From Acinetobacter phage vB_AbaS_TCUP2199, in the sequence record ON323491.1: a stretch of 64,000 bases of DNA. One strand, 5' to 3'. Each line of letters begins with the position of its first letter. Position 1 is the stretch's first letter. The notes under the pieces are model-generated. The model was not told the DNA's origin. It saw only the letters and a program-made list of their open reading frames with translations, and searched no databases. Positions 1 to 43,117 of the stretch are shown here, one piece after another. The position numbers were made by a program, and so were the translations under genes.

Positions 1-267
1 ATGAGCACATACCAAAGCACAATAGCTTGAGTATATCGAGTAGAACGCCACTAATCGAGAGACTGGATAGTATACCTTCAACCGTAACTATCCGCTAGTC
101 CGAACCACTAATTAACAATTTGAAAAGGTCGTTATCTATATATCTATAGTAATGTCTTATATTCGAGAATCGGACTTATCCACAGTACCGACGGTATAAA
201 CATTATGTATATAGTTAATTACCAAAATAACGGTTTTATACTAGGCTAGCACTCAACACTCAATAGT

Positions 268-284
268 GGCCGTGGCCGTGGCAA
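268..284. repeat. 17-bp direct repeat GGCCGTGGCCGTGGCAA, copy 1; contains overlapping GTGGCCGTG units
   Basis: Exact 17-mer also at 1239-1255. Reverse complement of the unit, CACGGCCAC, recurs at 323-331, 1039-1047, 1051-1059. Confidence 0.8.
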
Positions 285-343
285 TGTCTGACTCATTAAC
301 ACATTATCAGACAATGCCACTGACACGGCCACAGATACACACA

Positions 344-375
344 TAAGGCATTGCCCACAAGTGGGCAATGCCTTA
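344..375. repeat. Perfect 15-bp-arm palindrome TAAGGCATTGCCCAC-aa-GTGGGCAATGCCTTA
   Basis: Read directly from the sequence. Overlaps the GTG of listed ORF 361-660. Confidence 0.8.
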
Positions 376-426
376 CTAACATTCAATGTTATAACCAAGT
401 TTAAACACTTTTTGGAGTACACACTC

Positions 427-660
427 ATGAATACAATCAATGACAAAGTATTAAATACTTTAAATACTCTTTCCGCTACTGGAAAGAATGCCACTATCCT
501 TTTGACCATTGCCAAAGCAATTAATGCAGATAAAGCATTACCAGCATGGGCAGAGGAAACACTAGGGCAAAAGTTCTTTATCAATGTATTACATCATCGG
601 AGCGTACCATTGCAAAGGTATGTAAAGATGATTCATATCATGATTTACGTTCTATTGTGA
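427..660 (+). CDS. Hypothetical small protein; trimmed from listed ORF 361-660 to the ATG preceded by GGAG
   Basis: GGAG lies 9 nt upstream of ATG 427. Its stop TGA overlaps GTG 657 of the next frame. Confidence 0.3.
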   Translation: MNTINDKVLNTLNTLSATGKNATILLTIAKAINADKALPAWAEETLGQKFFINVLHHRSVPLQRYVKMIHIMIYVLL

Positions 661-1025
661 ATACATGGAACAAAACGCAACGTTTAACAGTGGGCCAATA
701 TGAGACACTTAAAACGTTAATGACTATCAAAGTATTTCAAAATAATGAAGTATTAAAAGCCATTAAAACACAAGCGGAATTAGTGGCAGCGATTACAGTC
801 ACTAAAGCTTTGTTTGGTTGCCATGATGTGACTATAACGGGCAATGAAGTACAAAAGGCCAAAGCTAAAGATACGGATTATTTCAATAATCTTGAGTCTT
901 TCAAGGCTGGTATTGACACAGTAAACAATGCCGATGATTTAGTCTTGATGATGGAAATTATCCAAGCTCGTTTGGAATCTCAAGTAAAAGCCCAATCAAA
1001 AGCACATCATAAAAAAGTGGCATAA
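546..1025 (+). CDS. Hypothetical protein; alternative start GTG 657 is coupled (GTGA) to the stop of 427-660
   Basis: Listed 159-aa ORF. It overlaps 427-660 in another frame, so the true start is uncertain. Confidence 0.35.
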   Translation: MGRGNTRAKVLYQCITSSERTIAKVCKDDSYHDLRSIVNTWNKTQRLTVGQYETLKTLMTIKVFQNNEVLKAIKTQAELVAAITVTKALFGCHDVTITGNEVQKAKAKDTDYFNNLESFKAGIDTVNNADDLVLMMEIIQARLESQVKAQSKAHHKKVA

Positions 1026-1033
1026 TCCTTGCC

Positions 1034-1057
1034 ACTTTCACGGCCACTTTCACGGCC
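1034..1057. repeat. Tandem 12-bp repeat CTTTCACGGCCA x2, immediately upstream of the RBS of the small ORF 1071-1196
   Basis: Read directly from the sequence. Same CACGGCCAC core as the other copies. Confidence 0.75.
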
Positions 1058-1070
1058 ACAAAGGTTGAAT

Positions 1071-1196
1071 ATGAAATATGTCCTTTATGTAACTTTGGCA
1101 GTGGCGTTAGGCTACTGCCTTTTCCATAACGCAGCTCAAGAGATACAATACCGCGACGAACAAACGCAACGCCAAATAATGGAAATTGACCAATAA
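1071..1196 (+). CDS. Candidate 41-aa hydrophobic miniprotein (MKYVLYVTLAVALGYCLF...)
   Basis: AAGG RBS 6 nt upstream; one TM-like segment; intrinsic terminator directly downstream. Below the 60-aa ORF-track cutoff. Confidence 0.3.
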   Translation: MKYVLYVTLAVALGYCLFHNAAQEIQYRDEQTQRQIMEIDQ

Positions 1197-1199
1197 CAA

Positions 1200-1226
1200 A
1201 AGCAAACATTAACCCGTTTGCTTTTT
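1200..1226 (+). terminator. Intrinsic terminator hairpin AAAGCAAAC-loop-GTTTGCTTT followed by TTTTTAT
   Basis: Stem plus T-tract read from the sequence. Confidence 0.55.
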
Positions 1227-1238
1227 TTATTGGAATCG

Positions 1239-1255
1239 CGTTTTAGCGGGCCGTG
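1239..1255. repeat. 17-bp direct repeat GGCCGTGGCCGTGGCAA, copy 2
   Basis: Exact match to 268-284. Confidence 0.8.
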
Positions 1256-1436
1256 GCCGTGGCAAAACCCATATAACTGATTTTTTGAGGAATTTTGAAA
1301 TGTCGCACAAATTTTTTGAGAATTTGCCAAGTAAAGACTTGCCTTGGTTTAGAACTTACACTTGCGAAAATTTTGACTGGGCCACATACACGGCCAAGAT
1401 TACAAGCAAGATGAAGCATTTAGAAAAGCTTTTAAT

Positions 1437-1697
1437 TTGCCGTTTGATGTGCATTTCACGCTTGAAAATATAGCGCTTGCAAATGCAAGTGCCATTGCTT
1501 TGTTACGTCAAAATGAAAATGAATGGTTAGATAAAGGGCTTATCATTGACCAAGCGCGGGTATTAAAACAGAGATTGGAAGGGGCATGGATGCAAATTGA
1601 GTTAATGCCTGATTATCATTTTTATTTTAAAAATAGAGAATCAGCATTATCTAAAGATGTTTATTCTATTTTAAATATTATCTTGAATGATATTTAA
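1437..1697 (+). CDS. Hypothetical protein
   Basis: Listed 86-aa ORF. Overlaps the alternative small ORF 1300-1473 (GAGGA RBS), so which one is real is unclear. Confidence 0.25.
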   Translation: MPFDVHFTLENIALANASAIALLRQNENEWLDKGLIIDQARVLKQRLEGAWMQIELMPDYHFYFKNRESALSKDVYSILNIILNDI

Positions 1698-1826
1698 ACT
1701 AAATAATTTTAGAATAAATTTTGATCAATTATTATCTTTTATTATAAATTGGCACGGCTAGAACAAGTGATGTTCGCCGTGTCAATAGAATTTTTCTGTT
1801 TGATCATTATTTGTACCGAAATTTTT

Positions 1827-1930
1827 GTCATTTCGGCCAATTTGGTCAAAAAAGAAGCTCATTATATGAAAAGATATTTTGATCGAAATTTGCACGATTT
1901 CGGCCAGAATGCTGTTTTCGGCCAAAAAGC
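1827..1930. repeat. Three copies of TTTCGGCCA(A) within about 100 bp
   Basis: Copies at about 1829, 1895 and 1914. GGCC core as in the other repeat families. Confidence 0.6.
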
Positions 1931-1959
1931 AGAAATTTAAAAAGTCCCATTTTGCTTGG

Positions 1960-2128
1960 GTGTAACTTTCTAGGATAATAATTTAATTTTTTTTTTTTCA
2001 TGCGAGAGAGAAGTGAAAATATTAGAATATATATACAGTAAATATATAAATGTAACAGAATATGTAAAATACATCTCTCTTACACAAAAAAGAAAAATTG
2101 TGATTTATTATCCGAGAAAGTTACACTC
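1960..2128. repeat. ~22-bp inverted repeat (GTGTAACTTTCTAGGATAATAAT / ATTATTATCCGAGAAAGTTACAC, one mismatch) flanking an AT-rich core with a T13 tract and (TA)n runs
   Basis: Arms at 1960-1982 and 2107-2128. Nested GAGAGA/TCTCTC inverted motifs in between. Confidence 0.7.
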
Positions 2129-2139
2129 TTGAAAAATAA

Positions 2140-2540
2140 GGGAAAAGTGAAAAATGGGCCGTGTCTGAGCGTGTGAAAGTGGCAGTATTTTAGGCTGAAT
2201 CAGTACCCGAACCCCAAATTTGCACCACAATAGTGCAAAAATGCAGATTCGGGGCCGACAGATAACCCTAACCCGTACCAATTTCTCAACCCCAACCCGA
2301 ACCATGCTCAAAACCACGCTGCCACGCTGCACCATTTCACGTATTTTCGCGCTAAACAGTGCAAAATGAATTACCCTACGTTAAGCCCTTAAAAACGCTT
2401 ATACGCAAAACCACGCGCAAATAGCGAAATACGACTTGTGAAGACGCAAAAACCCCACTCAAGACGAAAATTTCGCGCTGAACCCCGACCAAAACCAAAA
2501 TTTCGCGCCCAACACGAAATTTTGCACCTATTGCCGACCA
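2140..2540. repeat. GC-richer block with degenerate short repeats (AACCC/CCCGAACC units; AAATTTCGCGC x3; TTGCAC...GTGCAA dyads)
   Basis: Read from the sequence. The only ORF is the 75-aa - strand ORF 2108-2335, judged spurious. Confidence 0.5.
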
Positions 2541-2548
2541 CGATTTAG

Positions 2549-2611
2549 TTTAAATAAGAGAGTTAATATTATTATCCCGCGTCAATAATAATATTAACTC
2601 CCTTATTTAAA
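2549..2611. repeat. 26/27-bp inverted repeat TTTAAATAAGAGAGTTAATATTATTAT...ATAATAATATTAACTCCCTTATTTAAA with a ~10-nt GC spacer
   Basis: One mismatch between arms. Lies 40 bp upstream of the first well-formed gene (2655). Confidence 0.8.
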
Positions 2612-2654
2612 TTGAGAGATTTAAATAATCCCATTTTAATTTTCTATTATTTAC

Positions 2655-2969
2655 TTGACGCGAGTATTTAAAATGCAAAACCAACCTATTAATAAATCTT
2701 TATTGACGACAATGGCTCAAGTTGCAAAAACTGGCTTAATCAATGGCAGTGTATGGTCGGAGTCGCATAAGACCTTTATTTTTCGTGGTGTCATATACCT
2801 AGTGATTGGCATTGGCTTAGTGATAGCAATTTACTTTATGGGTTTATGCATCATGGGCCATGATCAAAGTATGCAAGTCCGTTTTTACATGGGCGTTATT
2901 GCCTTCATCAATCTGGTTTACATTTTGGTGATATACATCCTTCAAGCTATTTTCTTTTACGAAAAATAA
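2655..2969 (+). CDS. Small membrane protein (2 predicted TM helices)
   Basis: Listed ORF. Hydrophobic segments GVIYLVIGIGLVIAIYFMGL and IAFINLVYILVIYIL. Confidence 0.55.
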   Translation: MTRVFKMQNQPINKSLLTTMAQVAKTGLINGSVWSESHKTFIFRGVIYLVIGIGLVIAIYFMGLCIMGHDQSMQVRFYMGVIAFINLVYILVIYILQAIFFYEK

Positions 2970-2980
2970 GGAGTTCGGCC

Positions 2981-3946
2981 ATGTATGAATTTAATCCTGA
3001 AAACGTAAACGTTGAACTGCAAGCAGCTTTAAGAAAGAAAAGCTTTTTGGCTGCAAAAGGTATTGCCAACAACATGGTGTTTAATGATTTGGCAGTTATT
3101 CAAGTTCACGACGAAATTTTGCCAAAAATGCAATTTCGTTATGGTGCTGAAAATAACAAGATCATTGACAAAGAACTGGTTTTTATCGGCAACCCAAGTT
3201 TATTGGGTTTATACCAGACACCAAGGGAGCTTTTGGTTTTGGATTGGCTAGTAAGTGCATTGGTCTGTTTATATAACAATGCCAAAAGTATTAGTCCAAA
3301 CAATCGTAATTATGAAAGTGTAAAAAGTCCGCTTTATCATTTGGGTGATATGAGTCCAGTCACTGAATTGACTTTTGGATTTCCCCCAAGTTTTTCAATT
3401 TGCGGATTTATTCAAAGTAATGCAGTCAAGCAGCTTGACGGCTTACATAATCATTATGACTGGTATGACTCATTTTTATTCAGTGCATTAATCGGGATGA
3501 TGGCCCAGCACTGGAAATTATGGAGTGGCAATATCAGTTACCCAGTCCCAGCCAATTACTCATGCACACAACGGAAAAATCTTGATGATCAAATCCGTAA
3601 ATTTGCACGGATACGCCAATGGTCTAGCCAAGTGGCCGAGCAAATCATTGAGTGTCAGAATGTGGCATTGATACCGCGATATTCACACACCAGTAAAAAG
3701 GTGATTTACGAAAACCTGCGTCATTTTGGCAAGCGCGAGAAGCTGGATAACCACTTGTGGCTGACTCGTTCATGGTTAGCGCGTGATCGTTATAACCGAA
3801 TTTCCCGTCAACAAGAATCATTTTTTGACGGTGTGCAAGGTGAATTGCGATTTGAATTAATTCAATTTTTGCTTGACAACTTGATTGCCTTTCAGCGCAC
3901 ACATGAACTTAAAGTCCCTTATTGTGAGAGCTGCCAAAATGATTAA
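2981..3946 (+). CDS. Hypothetical protein (321 aa)
   Basis: Listed ORF in the tightly packed same-strand array. Confidence 0.6.
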   Translation: MYEFNPENVNVELQAALRKKSFLAAKGIANNMVFNDLAVIQVHDEILPKMQFRYGAENNKIIDKELVFIGNPSLLGLYQTPRELLVLDWLVSALVCLYNNAKSISPNNRNYESVKSPLYHLGDMSPVTELTFGFPPSFSICGFIQSNAVKQLDGLHNHYDWYDSFLFSALIGMMAQHWKLWSGNISYPVPANYSCTQRKNLDDQIRKFARIRQWSSQVAEQIIECQNVALIPRYSHTSKKVIYENLRHFGKREKLDNHLWLTRSWLARDRYNRISRQQESFFDGVQGELRFELIQFLLDNLIAFQRTHELKVPYCESCQND

Positions 3947-30410: not shown

Positions 30411-31140
30411 GTCTAAACAAACACGAATGCACTTTCAGGAGTTTCTGAAAGCTAAAGGTTTTTACACTGGCAATATAGATGGCATTATCGGTTTAAGAAC
30501 TAAAGCCGCCATTCTAAATTGTTTCCAGTGTAAAACTGCAACTACCATTACCGACGTTGAATTATTTCAATTTGCCAAATTACTTGGTGATACCAACACG
30601 GTTCGTATTCGTACCGTTGCCAAGGTAGAATCAAATGGCTCAGGCTGGTTCAATGATGGTCGCCCAAAAATTTTGTATGAGCGTCATAAGTTCTGGAAGT
30701 ATAACGATGATGCAACTGCACCTAAGTCTACTTTCTTTAACTTCCCAGATGCTGGTAACTACACCATTGATGCAGACAAGAATGGTATCAATGATTCATA
30801 CGACAAACTTTTAAAGGCTTGTGAGTATGACCCAATGGGGGCTTTCATGTCAGTCTCAATGGGTGCCTTCCAAGTTATGGGTTTCTATTTCAAGGAAATG
30901 GGCTATGCCACACCTTGGGAAATGCTCTATGACTGTGCCCGTTCCGAGAAAGCTCAGTACCAGTTGCTGGTCAATTACATCATAATGAATAAATTGCAAA
31001 AAGCTTTCTTGGCTATTTCTGGAAAACCAGACACTTGCCGTATGTTTGCGTCAGGATACAATGGTAAAAATTACGCTAAGTATAATTACCATGGTAACTT
31101 GGCTTCTGCTTATTTATACTATTTGAACAAGGTCAGATAA
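30409..31140 (+). CDS. Endolysin: N-terminal peptidoglycan-binding domain plus a C-terminal muramidase-like domain (KVESNGSG…ERHKFW)
   Basis: PG_binding_1-like segment FQEFLKAKGFYTGNIDGIIGLRTKAAI; the C-terminal motifs resemble the DUF3380 N-acetylmuramidase family. Start is TTG 30409 or ATG 30427. Confidence 0.6.
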   Translation: MSKQTRMHFQEFLKAKGFYTGNIDGIIGLRTKAAILNCFQCKTATTITDVELFQFAKLLGDTNTVRIRTVAKVESNGSGWFNDGRPKILYERHKFWKYNDDATAPKSTFFNFPDAGNYTIDADKNGINDSYDKLLKACEYDPMGAFMSVSMGAFQVMGFYFKEMGYATPWEMLYDCARSEKAQYQLLVNYIIMNKLQKAFLAISGKPDTCRMFASGYNGKNYAKYNYHGNLASAYLYYLNKVR

Positions 31141-31155
31141 ATAGGCGGTTAAAAT

Positions 31156-31305
31156 ATGAGCAAACGTGAAGTTGCTGTTGTCATCGTCAAAGCCATTATT
31201 TTAGGGACGTTGCGCTATCTTGAAGATAAATCCAAGGATAAAAAACAACCTAAAAATAAAATTATTTTTAAAGATGGTGTTGACGAAGGAATCGGCCTTG
31301 GCTAA
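31156..31305 (+). CDS. Candidate 49-aa protein with a hydrophobic N-terminus, downstream of the endolysin gene
   Basis: ORF read by eye (MSKREVAVVIVKAIILGTL…); followed by a strong terminator. Below the ORF-track cutoff. Confidence 0.3.
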   Translation: MSKREVAVVIVKAIILGTLRYLEDKSKDKKQPKNKIIFKDGVDEGIGLG

Positions 31306-31390
31306 TATTGGTTTCAAGACGAGGGGCAGCAGTTAAACAGTAGTTCTAACGCAAGTTTGAAACAACCGTTGTATGCAAATCTCCAAGTAT

Positions 31391-31417
31391 AAAAAACCCC
31401 TTTCGGGGGTTTTTTAA
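31391..31417 (+). terminator. Intrinsic terminator AAAAAACCCC-tttc-GGGGGTTTTTT
   Basis: Read from the sequence. Confidence 0.7.
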
Positions 31418-31711
31418 TCGCTTTAGAAAGCAGTAAATTTTAAAGCCTAAATCAATTTATTTTGGATTAGTCTTTTTGATTTCAATATTTAGATACTATT
31501 GTTGCTTTCTAACCGATTAAACTGGCTACGAACTTAGCCAATGAAGTCGAAAGATGGATTGAACAACCCTTTAGTGTTGAGGTTCATTTAAATCTGGCAT
31601 GGCTGGCTTATCCATTTGGTTCTGCAGATAACCAGTGGTTAAAGTAGAGGGGTTCTAACAGCCAAATTGTTTTTAGATATTGATAGAAGCTATAGTAATT
31701 CTTGATATGGA

Positions 31712-31740
31712 CTTAAACAATTAGGGTTCGATTCCCTACG
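31712..31740 (+). other. tRNA T-arm-like element TAGGG-TTCGATT-CCCTA followed by CGCCAGA; no complete cloverleaf could be folded by eye
   Basis: Perfect 5-bp T-stem and canonical T-loop read from the sequence. No 5' partner for the acceptor stem found within 90 nt. Confidence 0.3.
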
Positions 31741-31856
31741 CCAGATGCCATTTATGGGTTATCTATCAAATTGAAGTAAACGAAAGCGCGTAAGTAGTTT
31801 ACGGAAAATTACTGGTGTAGATAGATGTGCTGTGTTACTTCTAGGGTCAAAGGCAC

Positions 31857-31887
31857 ATGGTGGTTCGATTCCCCGATAACCCAACCA
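31857..31887 (+). other. Second tRNA T-arm-like element (GGTGGTTCGATTCCCC…AACCCAACCA)
   Basis: T-loop consensus with a weaker stem; ends in ACCA-like sequence. Confidence 0.25.
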
Positions 31888-32862
31888 ATATTTATAGTTG
31901 ATAATTTCAGTCAACTGTACATCAAAGGTCGCAACTTTGCAGGACAGAAGTTATCAACTATAAATGTTGGAAACAATATTTAGTGAAGCATTCTTGACGA
32001 ACCGCATGAGATGTAAGGGGTAATGGAGACTGTGATGGTCATAGAAGTTACCAGATAAGTTGAAGCGTATGTGGCCCTTTTCAAAGGTTGTGGGCCAAAG
32101 CTGAGCTGACGATCAAACAGATTTAGCATCAACCAAGGTGTTGCTAGTCACTTCACCGAGAATGCTTCCCTAAATGTTGGAATACTCAGGCAAAGGGTAA
32201 ACCGCTGTAGACAGGCCGCAAGGGACAGATACTCTTGGTCAGGGCCGATAAGTTTTTGGGTTATGCAACTCAATTCCAACATTTCCAAATTTGAGGACTG
32301 CCGATTTAGCGGTTGTGCAAGCTCAAAGGGGTTACGTAAGTGCCGCACGACCTACTAGCTAGGAAGGCATAAGCGTAATGGGTGTCACCTACCAGCAGGT
32401 CAACTAAGTACACGTTGATTAATCCTAGTGGTGAGATGCTAGGGAACCCCAGCTAGGGTTCCTAACAATATTTATGGAAACAAATTCATGACTGTGACCT
32501 CTTTAAAAAAAGATAAGCAGTTGATTGTCGGTTAGTTTGGGTATGTGAGGTAACCACTCAAGCGGACAATCTCCTTCCTCACAAGGGTTGAGTTTGGTTC
32601 CATAAGTGTTGTAAATGAGAGAAACAGCCCGTATCCCTGTATGGTTAAGACTGCTCTCAATAGTCTGTGGATTGAAACCTAGCTGGTAACAGCATGAGAC
32701 GGATGCCACGCCTTGTATGGCAACAAACCAGCGAGTGAGTGGAAAGCTCACAACCAACACTTACCATGTTGACTGTCAGACTCAGGACATAAGCGAGGAA
32801 CATAGCAGAGAAATTGCTCTTAGAAGTAGAAGCCTGCTTGACCGACAAGAATGTTGAGTCAG

Positions 32863-32898
32863 CACCCCGACCATTAAATTGGTTGGGGTGTTATTTTA
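32863..32898 (+). terminator. Hairpin CACCCCGACCA-ttaaat-TGGTTGGGGTG followed by TTATTTTA
   Basis: Read from the sequence. Confidence 0.55.
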
Positions 32899-32923
32899 TC
32901 CACGCAATAAAAAGGAAATAACC

Positions 32924-33223
32924 ATGACCCCCGAAGATCAAAAAGTGCTGGACCAAATTGTAGATTTACCGACAGTTTTAAATGTTGAAGGCTTTGGTAT
33001 CACAGAAGCAGACGTTTACAATCAAGCCTGTCAGATTTATGCTAAGTTAGTTTCTGTACCACGTACCCTGCAACATGAACAAATGCTAGACTTTACTTAC
33101 AAAGAGCTTGGTTATGAAGGCGGTGCCACAGAAGCTTACCAAGTTGGAGCTGTACAAGCAGCCTTTAACATCAAACGTATGGTTGAAAAAGGAATGGCTA
33201 AACAGGAGAAAGAGAATGTTTAA
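32924..33223 (+). CDS. Hypothetical protein
   Basis: Trimmed to the ATG after AAAAGGAAATAACC. Confidence 0.5.
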   Translation: MTPEDQKVLDQIVDLPTVLNVEGFGITEADVYNQACQIYAKLVSVPRTLQHEQMLDFTYKELGYEGGATEAYQVGAVQAAFNIKRMVEKGMAKQEKENV

Positions 33224-33407
33224 ATCAATGTTAAAATCTGCAGTAGCTATTGCAGCAACCCCAGTTACGGTTGTAGTTGATGCCACAGCCAATGTGAAGG
33301 ACTGTATTGTAGGCGACACCCCACGTGGTTTAAAAAACACTAAAGCTGTCACAGATTTAGCTGCAGAAAATTTTAAGAACGCAGTTGAGCCTTTAACAAA
33401 AAAGTAG
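33217..33407 (+). CDS. Hypothetical small protein
   Basis: ATG after AGGAGAAAGAGA; trimmed from listed ORF 33108-33407. Confidence 0.4.
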
Positions 33408-33693
33408 TAAATTACCAATTGAATGTTATGTTAGTGGTGTGTCTAAAAGCTGATTAATGCCAACCTCCTTTGCTCAGAACAGTTGGTACGTGGACATTGT
33501 TAGAAGTCAGCGCAAACTTATCTATCTCCGTCGGTAAGTGCAAAAGTTAAACACACAAGCAACCCTTAACCTTGGCCTGAGCATCCAGACAATACACGGT
33601 GCGACTAAACTAACTGCCAATTAATTTAGCGTAGATTGTCAATAGGTTAAGCATCAACGTGGTAAATACAGCCACAGTTGCGTAAACGGTAGT

Positions 33694-33727
33694 AACCCCC
33701 AACGTAGGAGTTTGGGGGTTTACTTTT
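33694..33727 (+). terminator. Hairpin AACCCCC…TGGGGGTT followed by TACTTTT
   Basis: Read from the sequence. Confidence 0.5.
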
Positions 33728-39822: not shown

Positions 39823-40950
39823 ATGATTGATCAAAATTATAAACACAGAAACCCTTTAATAATTACCCCTATGGGTAATTTTTTACAGACCATTGGTGAC
39901 ACCCACTTAGGTCGGGTGTTTAAAAACGATGTGCCTTTGGACCGTCGTGGTGATTATGAGCAATACCAGTATGAAAAATTACAGGAACTGCTTTGGGCTA
40001 AACCAAAATTTACTACGACTGAAACACTCCTTAGCTCAGAAATTAAAGGCCGCTATGTTAAGGCCCAAGTAGGCGACTGGTTTGATAAGCCAGTCGTTAC
40101 ACTGAATGTTATTCAACAGTCAGTTGATACGTTAGAACAGTATGCCCAAGAACATGAGGATAAAGAGGAACTTTTTATCCTTTCTGGAAACCACGATGAT
40201 GCCAAAAATGTCACGGATACGACAGCTTGGGATTTATTAGCCAGTACGTTACGCAGCAGTGTGTATAATTCAGAAGGCACTGTTACTTTTGTGAAGGACT
40301 ACGAGGTATATGAATATGCAAACGGTGAAGAAATCCTGTTTATTGGTTGGAATATTGCCACTAATGCTTGTTCTGCTTTACTTAGAGCTTTGGAAGCGGG
40401 CCATAAGTCTATAACAACTGTGGTCTGCCACTTGGATAAAATCAGCTATGGGAATGACGAAAATGTCATTCCTTATGAATTTTTTGCAAGCCATGGTGTC
40501 AAACTAGTTGTCAGCGGCCATGAGCATAAACCTTACCATTCCCATGACAGTGGTATGGAAATTATTGGTACTGGTTCATTATTACCTTTCAGTCATGCCG
40601 AAGATGATGGTGAAGAAATCTATGTGACTTTGCACTCAATCAATGAGTATGAAGATTACTTGATTGACAATGATGTGACTGACAAACATATCCGTTTGAT
40701 CTTGGATGAAGATGACCAGAAGCGTGTAGACGAACTCAACAATGTTCAATCATTAAGCTTGAAGATTGTTAAGAAGGGCGTAGCTGTAGAAGTTCTCGAT
40801 ATGGATAACTCAGGCGTTAGCCAAGTTACCTTGGAAGCTTACGATGCCAAAAGTGTTTGGGAAAATGCTGTGGCTGAGACTGGGTTAGAGCCAGTGACGG
40901 GTAAATTGGTATGGCAAGAAATCCAGTCTAAAGGGGACAGTGATGATTAA
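39823..40950 (+). CDS. sbcD: SbcD/Mre11-family nuclease
   Basis: Calcineurin-like phosphoesterase motifs GDTHLG, GNHDD, GHEH. Confidence 0.8.
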   Translation: MIDQNYKHRNPLIITPMGNFLQTIGDTHLGRVFKNDVPLDRRGDYEQYQYEKLQELLWAKPKFTTTETLLSSEIKGRYVKAQVGDWFDKPVVTLNVIQQSVDTLEQYAQEHEDKEELFILSGNHDDAKNVTDTTAWDLLASTLRSSVYNSEGTVTFVKDYEVYEYANGEEILFIGWNIATNACSALLRALEAGHKSITTVVCHLDKISYGNDENVIPYEFFASHGVKLVVSGHEHKPYHSHDSGMEIIGTGSLLPFSHAEDDGEEIYVTLHSINEYEDYLIDNDVTDKHIRLILDEDDQKRVDELNNVQSLSLKIVKKGVAVEVLDMDNSGVSQVTLEAYDAKSVWENAVAETGLEPVTGKLVWQEIQSKGDSDD

Positions 40951-43117
40951 AAAATTAAAGATGCGTAATTGGGCCAAGCATCATGACCGTGAGTTCTTTT
41001 TTGAAGCTGGTTTAAATATGATTCGCGGTGTCAATGAAGGTGGCAAGAGTTTGATTTTGGAAGCCATTGACTATGCACTTCATGGTTCAGTAGCCCTTCG
41101 TTTGCCTGCGAGTTTGTATCCAACTAACTTGTCATCTGAGCTAACAGTGGTTATCCGTGGCAAGGAATACTTCATTCAGCGTTCACCTAAAATGGCGATT
41201 CTGACTGACGTAGAAACAGACACTGTCCTTGCCAAAGGTACAAAGCCAGTAGATGCTGAGATTCGTAAAATTCTTGGTTACAGCCGCAGTGTATTTATGG
41301 TTTCCAACTATAGTTCTCAGAATGCTATTGACCAGTTGGCTGCATTAAAGCCTGCTGAGCGTAAGCGTGTGATTGACAACGTGGTTGGCCTGACTGCAGT
41401 TGAGGAAGTGATTGGTGACCATAAGGTTGAACTATCAGCTCTCAATAAAATGCTTGCTGGTCACAAGGCACGTTTACCTGATAATGAACCAGTAAAGCCT
41501 GCTGTGGATTTGCCAGATTATTTGTCGAGCCAGAAAATGTACTTGCGCGAAGAAATGACTCGCGTACAAGGTTATATTTCTCGTCAAGAACAAATCGCTG
41601 TGACGCACCAACGCTTAATGGATACCAAGCCAGAGCAGCTTCATTTTGATGAAGTGCGTTTGCAAAAAATGCTGATACCAGAAGGTATTGACCGTGCTGC
41701 TGCAGCAAAACATGACGCTACTTTAAAAAGTAAGAAAGACATGTTGGCCCAGCAACAGGCATTGTTGGAAGCTGAGAAACAGCCTGAGTATGTGCCTGAG
41801 CCAGACACAGCATGGTTAATTGAAGGTATGACTCGCGCTAAGTGGGATGCATACAATCAGAAAACTGCTCAATTAAACGCTGCTATTGATAAAGCTTTAA
41901 GTGACCAAAATGCCTTAGAAACTCGTAAGAAATCATTGACTTATATAAGTCAAGCTGACTTAGATGACTTATACGTGGCTAATAATCTTTACAAGGATTG
42001 GCTTAACGTACAGGAATTAAAGGCAAAAGGGTCATTGACTTGTGATAGTTGTGGGTCAGAAGTCCACTTGATGAAAGACCATCTGGCTAAATACCAGCAT
42101 GTGCCTGAGACTGTGGCTAAGCCAACAATGGATTATGATCAAGCAGTTAAAGAACATAAATGGTACAACGAAATACAAGAGGAAATTACCAAAGCTAAAG
42201 ATCGTGTAGTTGAACTCATGACCGAACGTGATGAACATGTTCTAACCATGAGCTGCTATAGCAATGAGCAGATAGAACAGCACTTCAAAATTGAAAACCA
42301 ACTGGAACTTTGGAAAGAAAGCCTTAAAAAATATGAAGATTATAAGTACCGTACTGGCACTTATAAAGATAACTGTGAACGCTTGGAAGCTGAAATTATC
42401 GAACTAGAAACCAACTGGTACGATGAAAAAACCTTGGCCGATAACTTCTATGCCATTGATGAATTTGAGAAGCTGGAAAAACAAAATGCCAGTTTGCTTG
42501 TTTGGCAGCGTAACTTTGATGCACTTCCAACCTATGAAGGTGATGAAGCTGTAGAAAAAGCCAAACTGGAATTGAAAGAACTCAATGAAAAAGAAGCTGA
42601 ACTTCAAGCTCTTGAATATGAGTGGGATGTTTATAAGCGTGACAAAGCAGCTTACGATGCTATTTACAGTGATTATGAAGTTGTAAAAACCCAAGTGGAT
42701 GCTGAGAAAGAAATCATTGAAACACTGCAGCTCTATAAAGCCAAGATCAAATCAACGATTTTGCCAAGTGTCAATTCAGTGGCATCTTCATGGATTCAGC
42801 GTATGTCCCTCGGTAAGCATGTAAGCGTGGCCCTTACCGATGATATGGAAATCTTAGTGAACAATGAACCAATTGAAGCACTTTCTATTTCGGGTCGTGC
42901 TTTGGGCCATTTAAGCTTACGCATGGCTTTGGGTCAGGTTTTAACGAATAGTATTTTTCCAGTGTTCATGGCTGATGAAGTGGATGCTTCAATGAGAAAC
43001 GAACGGGCACAAGCAGTGCTTGACAACTTGGTAAAAATGCTGGATGGGTCGGTGAAACAGATCATTATGATCTCACACCGAGAGCTGGAAAATATTCAAA
43101 ATGTGATTGAGGTGTAA
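40940..43117 (+). CDS. sbcC: SbcC/Rad50-family ATPase
   Basis: Walker A GVNEGGKS; long coiled-coil middle; signature-like LSISGRALG; Walker B MADEVD. Confidence 0.8.
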   Translation: MMIKKLKMRNWAKHHDREFFFEAGLNMIRGVNEGGKSLILEAIDYALHGSVALRLPASLYPTNLSSELTVVIRGKEYFIQRSPKMAILTDVETDTVLAKGTKPVDAEIRKILGYSRSVFMVSNYSSQNAIDQLAALKPAERKRVIDNVVGLTAVEEVIGDHKVELSALNKMLAGHKARLPDNEPVKPAVDLPDYLSSQKMYLREEMTRVQGYISRQEQIAVTHQRLMDTKPEQLHFDEVRLQKMLIPEGIDRAAAAKHDATLKSKKDMLAQQQALLEAEKQPEYVPEPDTAWLIEGMTRAKWDAYNQKTAQLNAAIDKALSDQNALETRKKSLTYISQADLDDLYVANNLYKDWLNVQELKAKGSLTCDSCGSEVHLMKDHLAKYQHVPETVAKPTMDYDQAVKEHKWYNEIQEEITKAKDRVVELMTERDEHVLTMSCYSNEQIEQHFKIENQLELWKESLKKYEDYKYRTGTYKDNCERLEAEIIELETNWYDEKTLADNFYAIDEFEKLEKQNASLLVWQRNFDALPTYEGDEAVEKAKLELKELNEKEAELQALEYEWDVYKRDKAAYDAIYSDYEVVKTQVDAEKEIIETLQLYKAKIKSTILPSVNSVASSWIQRMSLGKHVSVALTDDMEILVNNEPIEALSISGRALGHLSLRMALGQVLTNSIFPVFMADEVDASMRNERAQAVLDNLVKMLDGSVKQIIMISHRELENIQNVIEV

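What the first reader, a model, noticed from the sequence alone, without database searches (positions are those of the whole stretch)
1960..2611. Origin-like architecture: AT-rich core flanked by a 22-bp inverted repeat, a degenerate repeat field, and a 27-bp-arm palindrome
Positions 1960-2128 are a 22-bp inverted repeat with one mismatch enclosing a T13 tract and (TA)n runs, which could serve as a DNA-unwinding element. Positions 2140-2540 are GC-richer and carry degenerate AACCC / CCCGAACC units, AAATTTCGCGC three times, and TGCAC…GTGCA dyads. Positions 2549-2611 are a 26/27-bp-arm inverted repeat with a GC-rich 10-nt spacer, just upstream of the first compact gene. Together they resemble a replication origin, a pac/cos region, or a major early control region.
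Basis: seen in the sequence. Interest (0 to 1): 0.55.

Follow-up and report, generated by a model that had tools for sequence, protein, structure and literature searches.

The report
Palindrome marking a phage genome end
This stretch is where the 2.2-kb repeat at each end of an Acinetobacter phage's linear DNA stops, so one physical end of the packaged genome falls inside a conserved, easily melted palindrome that most likely directs how that end is cut and the repeat copied.

Summary
The window is Acinetobacter phage vB_AbaS_TCUP2199. In three close relatives with read-mapped ends (fJoAci01, EAb13, fJoAci04), the ~2.2-kb direct terminal repeat ends at the homologous position, window 2085|2086. 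That point lies in the AT-rich spacer of the first inverted repeat, 19 nt from its right arm, so element 1 brackets a physical genome end.

Bracketing inverted repeats of unrelated sequence also occur at the same (early-gene-side) boundary in Caulobacter phage Seuss and, less significantly, in Achromobacter phages JWF and 2-1. They are absent in Lumi, T7, T5 and phage K, and absent at the opposite boundary in every phage tested.

A GGCCAC box sits 63 and 69 nt outside the two boundaries in inverted orientation. It varies between clades, but its left and right copies match within each phage.

The C-rich middle field is poorly conserved and is not a structured RNA. The second palindrome is nearly invariant, and its role is unresolved (terminator or operator).

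Best reading: a terminal-repeat boundary and end-forming signal, followed by the leader of the early operon. An origin is neither supported nor excluded. The boundary is already annotated in relatives; the cis architecture around it has not been described.

The parts
1..2085 (+). Direct terminal repeat. The window starts about 146 nt into it. It carries two small genes of unknown function.
   Evidence: Homology to the PhageTerm-annotated repeats of fJoAci01 (1-2238), EAb13 (1-2177) and fJoAci04 (1-2182). The two copies are identical in each record.
1698..1948 (.). Conserved non-coding block inside the repeat, with three TTTCGGCC boxes (1831, 1898, 1916) and two CGAAAT...ATTTCG dyads
   Evidence: 4-way identity is 0.62-0.88, higher than in the adjacent gene. 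The motifs are exclusive to this region.
1945..2141 (.). Nested imperfect palindrome (element 1) that brackets the repeat boundary
   Evidence: DNA fold -33 kcal/mol, z = -7. 93% of cells are paired in 5 phages, against 45-61% when partners are slid; covariation is not significant.
1960..1981 (.). Left arm, GTGTAACTTTCTAGGATAATAA
   Evidence: 21/22 complementary to 2105-2126. Nearly invariant in the 6 sequences that cover it: one variable position, 1979 T/C.
1999..2085 (.). AT-rich core, the last 87 nt of the repeat. Contains the GAGAGAG/CTCTCT inner stem and can fold back on itself.
   Evidence: 1975-2074 is 83% A+T, and 2011-2110 is the second least stable 100-bp duplex segment of the 64 kb. 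Fold.
2085..2086 (.). Inner end of the terminal repeat, i.e. the right physical end of virion DNA (...CTCTCTTACAC | AAAAAAGAAAAA...)
   Evidence: Three annotated boundaries map to this alignment column. The flanking sequence is invariant in 7 sequences.
2105..2126 (.). Right arm, TTATTATCCGAGAAAGTTACAC, starting 19 nt outside the boundary
2155..2183 (-). Outside-flank box (bottom strand CTCAGACACGGCCCA) plus GTGAAAGTGGC. Mirrors a box 63 nt outside the other repeat boundary.
   Evidence: It is the best inverted-orientation match between the two outside flanks in 4 phages (1-7 of 200 shuffles each). It varies between clades while the left and right copies match within each phage.
2190..2545 (+). 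C-rich, G-poor field of degenerate AACCC/CCCGAACC units. About 8 invariant islands (e.g. 2200-2217 TCAGTACCCGAACCCCAA; dyad TTTGCAC-N7-GTGCAAA at 2219-2239) sit in variable, indel-rich sequence.
   Evidence: C/G = 2.05. 4-way identity 0.38-0.68. Islands. No conserved RNA structure.
2468..2522 (.). Three AAATTTCG boxes (2468 +, 2498 +, 2515 -). The last two form a 10-bp dyad.
2549..2611 (.). Second palindrome: 27-nt arms, 26/27 complementary, 9-nt loop CCCGCGTCA. Its inner stem carries TTATTATCC, the 9-mer also found in both arms of element 1.
   Evidence: Nearly invariant in 7 sequences, with only single-sided changes.
2645..2672 (+). Conserved element just before the start codon (TATTAT...TGACGCGAGTATTTAAA)
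   Evidence: Conserved in the 6 sequences that reach it. A 1-nt indel before the ATG rules out the TTG at 2655 as the start codon.
2673..2969 (+). First early gene (98 aa, no known family), first of a long + strand block

Best explanation
The region is the inner border of the ~2.2-kb direct terminal repeat of a T5/SPO1-style siphovirus, followed by the untranslated leader of its early operon.

Shown: one physical end of packaged DNA lies at 2085|2086. This is inside the easily melted spacer of a conserved inverted repeat, 19 nt from the outer arm.

Inferred: element 1 is the cis signal that forms this end. The packaging enzyme (large terminase, with or without a partner) would recognise the invariant arms and/or the GGCCAC box 69 nt outside the boundary. 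It would then nick or cut in the AT-rich spacer. The single repeat copy at each concatemer junction would then be duplicated in one of two ways: by strand-displacement synthesis starting in the easily melted core, or by fold-back priming from the terminal 87-nt palindromic core (1999-2085), as proposed for T7. A matching box in inverted orientation 63 nt outside the other boundary would direct the cut on the opposite strand there.

The C-rich field and the second palindrome most likely act on transcription, by termination/insulation and/or as an operator in front of the early genes. That part is the least certain.
For: 1. Three PhageTerm-annotated repeat ends from two laboratories map to the same alignment column. 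The repeat copies are identical in each record. EAb13's termini come from read data (PMC10508131).

2. The boundary sequence and both arms are invariant or nearly so (one variable position in each arm) in up to 7 sequences, including metagenomic relatives at ~75% identity. The adjacent gene and the middle field diverge.

3. A bracketing inverted repeat at this boundary scores 19-21 in this group (matched or exceeded at 0-1 of 150 random positions). It recurs with unrelated sequence in Seuss (13-bp perfect arms, 0 of 150) and, less significantly, in JWF (score 13, 6.7%) and 2-1 (score 12, 14%). The opposite boundary never scores above background.

4. Mirrored GGCCAC boxes lie 63 and 69 nt outside the two boundaries. 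Each is the best inverted-orientation match between the flanks (1-7 of 200 shuffles per phage) and differs between clades while matching within a phage.

5. In phage K, which has a distantly related terminase, the same motif sits at both boundaries in inverted orientation. This shows that a two-fold symmetric layout exists in this kind of packaging.

6. The core is among the three most easily melted segments of the 64 kb.

7. Signs of a recombination-prone DNA end: Mystique carries a conversion patch (~1910-2039) ending 25-45 nt from the boundary, and two metagenome contigs begin 9 nt from it.

8. A hairpin intermediate containing the terminal repeat has been reported for T7 (PMC4281155).
Against: - The boundary was not mapped for TCUP2199 itself. 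Its record is a collapsed assembly, so the position rests on homology.
- No experiment links the palindrome to cutting.
- Covariation in the stem is not significant (136 of 500 shuffles reach it), so conserved sequence cannot be told apart from conserved structure.
- Lumi, a relative with the same layout, has no bracketing repeat. The JWF and 2-1 scores are only marginal against their own GC-rich background.
- The cut sites themselves share only T|GT (6-7 of 24 matches).
- No small terminase subunit or other candidate binding protein was identified.
- The roles of the field and the second palindrome are guesses.
Confidence: 0.6

Rival explanations
1. Replication origin. The AT-rich core would be a DNA-unwinding element. 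The inverted-repeat arms and the repeated boxes would bind an initiator, and replication would start here.
For: The three least stable duplex segments of the 64 kb lie in 1646-2652. There are dense region-specific boxes resembling iterons. Strand composition switches at the boundary, from C/G 0.6-0.85 inside to 1.45-2.0 outside.
Against: There is no DnaA box in 1960-2611, and window-wide counts are at chance. No recognisable initiator gene is adjacent. Cumulative GC skew simply follows gene orientation. The exact coincidence with the repeat end, and the recurrence of bracketing repeats at that boundary in distant relatives, is explained by end formation rather than by an origin. Another inverted-repeat cluster, in a gene-poor gap upstream of the DNA polymerase (31.1-33.7 kb), is an equally good candidate.
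Confidence: 0.12
2. A T5-like injection stop signal. DNA entry would pause here after the terminal repeat has entered the cell. The repeat-borne genes would be expressed first, and the rest of the genome would follow.
For: The genome layout resembles T5. T5's Repeat Region 3 is likewise a ~1.2-kb untranslated, repeat- and palindrome-rich stretch that straddles the inner end of the terminal repeat by 270 bp.
Against: T5's hallmark paired DnaA boxes are absent. The repeat carries only two small genes with no family match to T5 pre-early functions, and both are frameshifted in TCUP2199. T5 has no bracketing inverted repeat at its boundary. There is no evidence of two-step DNA transfer in this group.
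Confidence: 0.08
3. Primarily a transcription control region. It would contain host-polymerase early promoters and operators. The C-rich untranslated field would be a Rho loading site, and the second palindrome a bidirectional terminator or operator gating the early operon. The position of the repeat end would be incidental.
For: The region lies directly upstream of the first early gene. In T7 the same interval holds C-rich repeats and then promoters A0-A3. 2242-2367 is one of only two + strand stretches in 64 kb with C/G >= 2.5. The second palindrome folds to about -29 kcal/mol as RNA in both directions and has U-rich tails. The best sigma-70-like match (10/12) lies in the core on the - strand.
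Against: Promoter-like sites are not enriched (18 against 12.5 +/- 3.3), and none of quality lies on the + strand between 2086 and 2672. The terminator scan did not flag the second palindrome. This reading does not explain why the repeat ends inside element 1 in this group and inside unrelated inverted repeats in Seuss and JWF. It may well hold for 2140-2672 alongside the main explanation.
Confidence: 0.2

Closest known systems
Phage T5 'Repeat Region 3' at the inner end of the left terminal repeat (candidate injection stop signal)
   Same: A ~1-kb untranslated stretch packed with direct repeats, inverted repeats and palindromes. It straddles the inner end of a long direct terminal repeat and is better conserved than neighbouring genes. 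Both are siphoviruses with comparable genome layout.
   Different: T5 has paired DnaA boxes in its inverted repeats; none occur here. T5 has no strong inverted repeat bracketing the boundary (score 8, matched or exceeded at 74% of random positions). The T5 repeat is 10 kb with many pre-early genes, whereas this one is 2.2 kb with two genes of unknown function.
Phage T7 left end / concatemer junction (terminal repeat, CCTAAAG repeat array, early promoters, hairpin intermediate)
   Same: The same order of parts: repeat end, then C-rich G-poor degenerate short repeats, then the leader, then the first early gene. An inverted repeat spans the boundary (T7 arms 123-134 and 236-247). A hairpin containing the repeat has been reported as a processing intermediate.
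   Different: T7's bracketing repeat is weak (11/12, matched or exceeded at 33% of random positions), against 21/22 plus nested extensions here. The T7 repeat is 160 bp and non-coding. T7 packaging is coupled to its own RNA polymerase, which this phage lacks.
Staphylococcus phage K (K-like phages): boundary motif of the long terminal repeat
   Same: The terminases are distantly related. The same element occurs at both repeat boundaries in inverted orientation, implying two-fold symmetric processing.
   Different: In K the 12-mer TAAGTACCTGGG contains the cut itself (16/24 matches around the cut). Here the cut sites share only T|GT (6-7/24), and the mirrored boxes lie 63 and 69 nt outside. K has no bracketing palindrome.
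Caulobacter phage Seuss and Achromobacter phages JWF and 2-1 (nearest terminase relatives, 36-39% identity)
   Same: Genomes of the same size and layout, with 1.5-1.7-kb terminal repeats. The boundary on the early-gene side lies inside an inverted repeat with a 45-86-nt spacer (AT-rich in Seuss). The opposite boundary has none.
   Different: The arm sequences are unrelated and shorter (12-19 nt). Significance is marginal for JWF and 2-1. Lumi, a relative with the same layout, lacks the feature.

Membership tests
Fixed-end direct terminal repeat boundary (T7/T5/SPO1-type packaging) | Identical sequence at both physical ends of virion DNA | tested here: met
   The two copies are identical in fJoAci01, EAb13 and fJoAci04. 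It cannot be seen in the window itself, because the TCUP2199 record is a collapsed assembly.
Fixed-end direct terminal repeat boundary (T7/T5/SPO1-type packaging) | Ends defined by read-start peaks or end sequencing | not testable with these tools
   This relies on the depositors' PhageTerm annotations and on PMC10508131. No reads are available here.
Fixed-end direct terminal repeat boundary (T7/T5/SPO1-type packaging) | The boundary maps to a homologous, conserved position in the window | tested here: met
   All three boundaries fall at window 2085|2086. The flanking sequence is invariant in 7 sequences.
Fixed-end direct terminal repeat boundary (T7/T5/SPO1-type packaging) | The large terminase belongs to a lineage that packages long direct terminal repeats | tested here: met
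   The nearest terminases belong to JWF, 2-1, Lumi and Seuss, all with 1.5-2.3-kb terminal repeats verified from sequence. More distant matches are Staphylococcus and Enterococcus phages.
T5 Repeat Region 3 / injection stop signal | A long untranslated repeat- and palindrome-rich region straddling the inner end of the repeat | tested here: met
   1698-2672 has no conserved ORF. It extends 388 nt inside the boundary and 587 nt outside, comparable to T5.
T5 Repeat Region 3 / injection stop signal | Paired DnaA boxes within the inverted repeats | tested here: not met
   No TTATCCACA match with up to 1 mismatch in 1960-2611. The window has 28 matches against 21.5 +/- 4.8 expected.
T5 Repeat Region 3 / injection stop signal | Pre-early genes (A1, A2, dmp) in the repeat | tested here: inconclusive
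   The two repeat-borne proteins match no Pfam or PHROG family. No direct comparison with the T5 proteins was made.
T5 Repeat Region 3 / injection stop signal | Two-step DNA transfer | not testable with these tools
   This needs infection experiments.
T7-type left end / concatemer junction | An array of short degenerate C-rich repeats immediately after the repeat end | tested here: met
   C/G is 1.45-2.0 over +61 to +460 here, against 3.3 and 2.0 in T7. The units are AACCC/CCCGAACC here and CCTAAAG in T7.
T7-type left end / concatemer junction | An inverted repeat able to form a hairpin at the repeat boundary | tested here: met
   Score 19-21 here (matched or exceeded at 0-1 of 150 random positions). 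T7 scores 9.
T7-type left end / concatemer junction | A cluster of strong host promoters between the repeat and the first gene | tested here: inconclusive
   The consensus scan is not enriched, and no good + strand site lies in 2086-2672.
T7-type left end / concatemer junction | A phage RNA polymerase and its pause site at the junction | tested here: not met
   No RNA polymerase is annotated in the complete genome of fJoAci01.
K-like terminal repeat boundary motif | The same motif of 12 nt or more at both boundaries in inverted orientation, containing the cut | tested here: not met
   6-7 of 24 matches around the cut, against 16 of 24 in phage K. A displaced analogue does exist: boxes 63 and 69 nt outside the boundaries.
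Bacterial-type replication origin | A cluster of DnaA boxes | tested here: not met
Bacterial-type replication origin | An AT-rich unwinding element | tested here: met
   2011-2110 is the second least stable 100-bp segment of the 64 kb.
Bacterial-type replication origin | Iterons with an adjacent initiator gene | tested here: inconclusive
   Region-specific boxes exist, but no neighbouring protein has a recognisable family.
Bacterial-type replication origin | A mapped initiation site | not testable with these tools
   Cumulative GC skew follows gene orientation only.
Intrinsic (bidirectional) terminator, for the second palindrome | A stable stem followed by a U tract on the transcribed strand | tested here: inconclusive
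   The RNA hairpin is -28.5 (+ strand) and -30.3 (- strand) kcal/mol with U-rich tails. However, the stem is AT-rich, the loop is 9 nt, and the scanner did not call it.
Known or structured non-coding RNA | A match to an Rfam family, or a conserved structure with covariation | tested here: not met
   Only microRNA-precursor look-alikes far below their gathering scores. The consensus fold of the field is -23.9 kcal/mol with a covariation term of +0.42.

The most novel reading that the evidence does not exclude
A long conserved palindrome that brackets only the early-gene-side boundary of the terminal repeat is the cis element for hairpin-primed (fold-back) duplication of long terminal repeats. 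After a cut at 2085|2086, the terminal 87-nt palindromic core would snap back and prime copying of the 2.2-kb repeat. The hairpin would later be opened, possibly by the phage's own SbcCD-like hairpin nuclease (window 39823-43117). If so, this would be the first defined mechanism and signal for making long terminal repeats in the SPO1/T5-like packaging lineages.
Probability: 0.15. Interest if true: 0.7.

Novelty: new variant of a known kind. Interest (0 to 1): 0.45.

Why it matters
How phages with kilobase-long direct terminal repeats (T5, SPO1, K-like and many therapeutic phages) cut their concatemers at two fixed sites and duplicate the repeat is still poorly understood. Cis signals are barely defined outside T7/T3.

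This locus offers a compact, testable candidate signal. It consists of an invariant 22-bp inverted repeat around an easily melted core with the cut 19 nt from one arm, plus mirrored boxes outside both boundaries. Analogues in distant relatives suggest a shared solution.

There is also a practical gain. The TCUP2199 record has no mapped ends, and this analysis predicts them: the right end at window 2085, and the left end about 146 nt before the window start. That matters for correct genome orientation and for engineering this broad-host-range group of A. baumannii therapy candidates.

Tried and rejected
- Rfam search of 1-3200: only microRNA-precursor look-alikes, i.e. generic long hairpins.
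- Structured RNA in the middle field: the consensus fold is weak and covariation gives no support. Single-sequence z-scores are only -2.6 to -2.8 on either strand.
- Compensatory evolution in element 1: two double-sided changes (1979:2107 and 2013:2072), but overall no better than shuffles. Mystique breaks both. The second palindrome shows only single-sided changes.
- DnaA boxes: none.
- Sigma-70 promoter enrichment: none.
- Exact-pattern scans of viral contigs with either palindrome: no hits. A protein-based scan of viral contigs also found nothing.
- The two metagenome hits to a 19-mer of the arm (L016, L017) show no other similarity and are chance matches.
- A shared extended motif at the two cut sites: not found.
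- A bracketing inverted repeat at the outer boundary: not found in any phage.
- Literature on inverted repeats at terminal repeat boundaries of Twort-like phages: the papers held here did not cover it, so I tested phage K directly from sequence instead.
- The details of the T7 hairpin papers (Chung, Nardone and Hinkle 1990) could not be read. Only a secondary citation was available.
Full report
IDENTITY AND CONTEXT

The window is Acinetobacter baumannii siphovirus vB_AbaS_TCUP2199. The 321-aa protein at 2981-3946 is 100% identical to a protein of that phage on a 79,572-bp contig. Its closest deposited relatives are fJoAci01 (93% identity over the first 8 kb), Mystique, fJoAci04 and EAb13.

The genome has a T5-like layout:
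- a terminal repeat with two small genes;
- a long + strand block of small early ORFs;
- replication and recombination genes: Pol I, helicase, primase, ribonucleotide reductase, an SbcCD-like nuclease and a Holliday junction resolvase;
- late genes on the - strand, ending with portal and large terminase.

No phage RNA polymerase is annotated.

The TCUP2199 paper reports only '127-bp repeats at both ends'. That looks like an assembler overlap, so the true ends were never mapped for this genome.

Yes. Element 1 has arms 1960-1981 and 2105-2126, 21/22 complementary, extendable to 50-nt arms at 78%. The whole 1945-2141 stretch folds as a nested imperfect palindrome: T-run against A-run, then GAGAGAG against CTCTCT, around an AT-rich centre (-33 kcal/mol as DNA, z = -7.0).

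Element 2 has arms 2549-2575 and 2585-2611, 26/27 complementary, with a 9-nt GC-rich loop (z = -10.6).

These are the two best inverted repeats in all 64 kb. The three least stable 100-bp duplex segments of the window all lie between 1646 and 2652.

The field between the two elements is C-rich and G-poor (C/G 2.05 against 0.93).

Several short motifs are almost confined to this kilobase: AAATTTCG (5 of 6 copies), TTTCGGCC (3 of 3), GGATAATAA (3 of 4: both arms of element 1 and the inner stem of element 2) and GTGAAAGTGGC (3 of 3).

Corrections are small. The T tract is T12, not T13. The spacer is 9 nt, not 10. AAATTTCGCGC is exact only twice.

WHAT IS ACTUALLY THERE

The three relatives carry PhageTerm-annotated long direct terminal repeats of 2238, 2177 and 2182 bp. 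I confirmed that the two copies are identical in each record. In the alignment, all three inner repeat ends fall in the same column, window 2085|2086...CATCTCTCTTACAC | AAAAAAGAAAAATTG.

So one physical end of virion DNA lies inside element 1, in its AT-rich spacer, 104 nt from the left arm and 19 nt from the right arm. Two laboratories obtained the same boundary. For EAb13 it comes from Illumina read data (PMC10508131).

The 975-nt stretch 1698-2672 has no conserved ORF. The only ORFs there are short, the alignment is interrupted by indels, and the annotation calls made in EAb13 score very poorly.

CONSERVATION

Conservation comes in blocks:
- The non-coding stretch 1700-2146 has 4-way identity of 0.62-0.95, higher than the adjacent repeat-borne gene (0.15-0.45 in its middle).
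- The field 2147-2540 is the least conserved part (0.38-0.68).
- 2539-2618 rises again to 0.88-0.95.

Adding Mystique and two metagenomic relatives (L018 at ~75% identity, and L019) shows more. The boundary sequence and the second palindrome's core are invariant; each arm of element 1 has a single variable position (1979 T/C and 2107 A/G). The field keeps about eight invariant islands within variable, indel-rich sequence.

In element 1, 93% of stem cells pair in five phages, against 45-61% when the partners are slid. Covariation, however, is no better than the shuffles (136 of 500). The symmetry is therefore conserved, but sequence constraint and structural constraint cannot be separated. The second palindrome shows only single-sided changes.

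DOES THE ARCHITECTURE RECUR?

The nearest terminases outside the group (36-39% identity) belong to Achromobacter phages JWF and 2-1, Xylophilus phage Lumi, Caulobacter phage Seuss and Pseudoalteromonas phage KB12-38. The first four have the same layout in the reverse orientation and have terminal repeats of 1466, 1542, 2298 and 1748 bp, verified from sequence. KB12-38, whose record is arranged differently, was not examined.

I scored the best inverted repeat whose arms lie on either side of each boundary, and compared that score with 150 random positions in the same locus.

At the early-gene-side (inner) boundary:
- TCUP2199 group: 19-21 (matched or exceeded at 0-1 of 150 random positions).
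- Seuss: 13, perfect 13-bp arms around an AT-rich 86-nt spacer (0 of 150).
- JWF: 13 (6.7% of random positions).
- 2-1: 12, with arms homologous to those of JWF (14%).
- Lumi: 9 (not significant).

At the opposite boundary nothing exceeds background in any phage.

By the same test T7 has only a weak 11/12 pair centred near nt 185 (33% of random positions). T5 and phage K have none.

A strong bracketing palindrome at one boundary only is therefore a feature of this phage lineage. It is not a general property of phages with terminal repeats.

THE TWO BOUNDARIES COMPARED

I wrote each outside flank 5'->3' toward the boundary: top strand at the left boundary, bottom strand at the right. In all four phages the best local match between the two flanks is the same box. 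It ends 63 nt (left) and 69 nt (right) from the boundary, reached by 1-7 of 200 shuffles per phage. Direct-orientation controls are at background.

The box reads CTCAG-N-CACGGCCAC in fJoAci01 and TTCTGGGCCAC in EAb13 and fJoAci04. It differs between clades, but the left and right copies match within each phage. In the window it is at 2155-2169.

This inverted arrangement is what one asymmetric recognition site would need in order to direct nicks on opposite strands at the two ends of the repeat.

Phage K shows the principle directly. TAAGTACCTG|GG occurs at both of its boundaries in inverted orientation (16 of 24 matches around the cut). In the TCUP2199 group the cut sites share only T|GT (6-7 of 24), so the K-type motif at the cut is not present here.

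MOST LIKELY MECHANISM

Shown: the repeat ends at 2085|2086, inside a conserved and easily melted palindrome.

Inferred: element 1 is the end-forming signal. The terminase complex would read the arms and/or the outside box and cut in the spacer. The single repeat copy at each concatemer junction would then be duplicated in one of two ways:
- by strand displacement starting in the AT-rich core, which lies on the repeat side of the cut, where displacement must begin; or
- by fold-back priming from the terminal 87-nt core (1999-2085), whose GAGAGAG/CTCTCT stem is conserved.

A hairpin intermediate containing the repeat has been reported for T7.

Two side observations fit a recombination-prone DNA end at this site:
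- Mystique carries an EAb13-type conversion patch (~1910-2039) that ends 25-45 nt from the boundary.
- Two metagenome contigs begin 9 nt from the boundary.

THE REST OF THE REGION

The order of parts is: repeat end, C-rich degenerate repeats, leader, first gene. This parallels the T7 left end: repeat 1-160, CCTAAAG array, promoters A0-A3, first gene at 925.

It also parallels T5's Repeat Region 3, which straddles the repeat end by 270 bp.

The field is not a structured RNA. Its C>G bias would suit Rho loading if it is transcribed untranslated.

The second palindrome would form a hairpin of about -29 kcal/mol in RNA from either strand, with U-rich tails. It shares TTATTATCC with the arms of element 1. 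Terminator and operator are both open possibilities.

Promoter scans are uninformative.

RIVAL EXPLANATIONS

An origin is supported only by the easily melted core and the iteron-like boxes. It lacks DnaA boxes and a nearby initiator. A competing candidate region lies at 31.1-33.7 kb.

A T5-type injection stop lacks the DnaA-box signature and recognisable pre-early genes.

A purely transcriptional role does not explain why the repeat boundary sits inside inverted repeats in this group and, with unrelated sequence, in Seuss and JWF.

VERDICT

This is a packaging and end-related site, but it is a fixed terminal-repeat boundary rather than a cos or pac site, and there is no positive evidence for an origin.

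The repeat boundary is already annotated in relatives. The bracketing palindrome, the mirrored outside boxes and the recurrence in Seuss and JWF are not described in the papers I could read.

Noticed in passing
window 427-1025 and 1300-1697: Both genes in the terminal repeat are split by single-base deletions relative to fJoAci01: a C missing after 588 and an A missing after 1400. This gives ORF pairs 361-660/546-1025 and 1285-1473/1437-1697. These are either sequencing errors in the TCUP2199 record or real pseudogenes. The second gene is also very divergent (66% nucleotide identity to fJoAci01).
   Followed up: partly
window 31140-33712: A gene-poor gap of ~2.5 kb upstream of the DNA polymerase holds two further strong inverted repeats: 31885-31912/31943-31970 (28-nt arms, 89%) and 31974-32001/32152-32179 (28-nt arms, 82%). 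Relatives carry tRNA-Asn here; the window has no tRNA. This is a candidate origin or a middle/late control region.
   Followed up: partly
window 258-345, 1030-1060, 1249-1264, 1389, 2157: GGCCGTG/CACGGCC boxes are concentrated in the terminal repeat: 9 of the window's 18 copies lie in the first 2.2 kb, often as tandem GGCCGTGGCCGTGGCA. One inverted pair forms a long hairpin at 258-345. This looks like an array of binding sites for an unidentified protein.
   Followed up: partly
window 176-184: A single perfect DnaA box (TTATCCACA) lies in the terminal repeat. It is isolated, and the window-wide count is at chance.
   Followed up: yes
L007 (Mystique), equivalent to window ~1910-2039: Mystique carries a ~130-bp patch of EAb13-type sequence (21 of 22 informative sites) within otherwise TCUP2199-type sequence. 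The patch covers the left arm and left half of the core of element 1 and ends 25-45 nt before the repeat boundary. This looks like a short gene-conversion tract at a DNA end.
   Followed up: partly
L019 and L020, position 1 (equivalent to window 2077): Two metagenome contigs of a relative begin at CTCTTACAC|AAAAAAG, 9 nt before the repeat boundary. They come from a JGI record and an ENA soil record, possibly from the same study. This may reflect the physical end or an assembly break at the palindrome.
   Followed up: no
window 39823-43117: The phage encodes an SbcCD-like nuclease, and relatives also encode a Holliday junction resolvase. Such enzymes cleave hairpins and cruciforms, which could be relevant to processing the long palindromes at 1945-2141 and 2549-2611.
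   Followed up: no
window 2041-2068, - strand: The best sigma-70-like match in 1-3200 (TTTACA-16-TATATT, 10/12) lies in the AT-rich core and points leftward into the repeat. This recalls the leftward promoter A0 next to the T7 terminal repeat.
   Followed up: no
window 2264-2300, - strand: Runs of C3-4 on the + strand (AACCCTAACCC, CAACCCCAACCCGAACC; even denser in EAb13) give the - strand the potential to form G-quadruplexes. ACCCTAACCC also happens to match the vertebrate telomere C-strand unit.
   Followed up: no
window start (position 1): The TCUP2199 record opens about 146 nt inside the terminal repeat, and its published '127-bp repeats at both ends' match an assembler overlap. The deposited genome is therefore neither oriented nor terminated at its real ends. 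The predicted true length is about 82 kb.
   Followed up: partly
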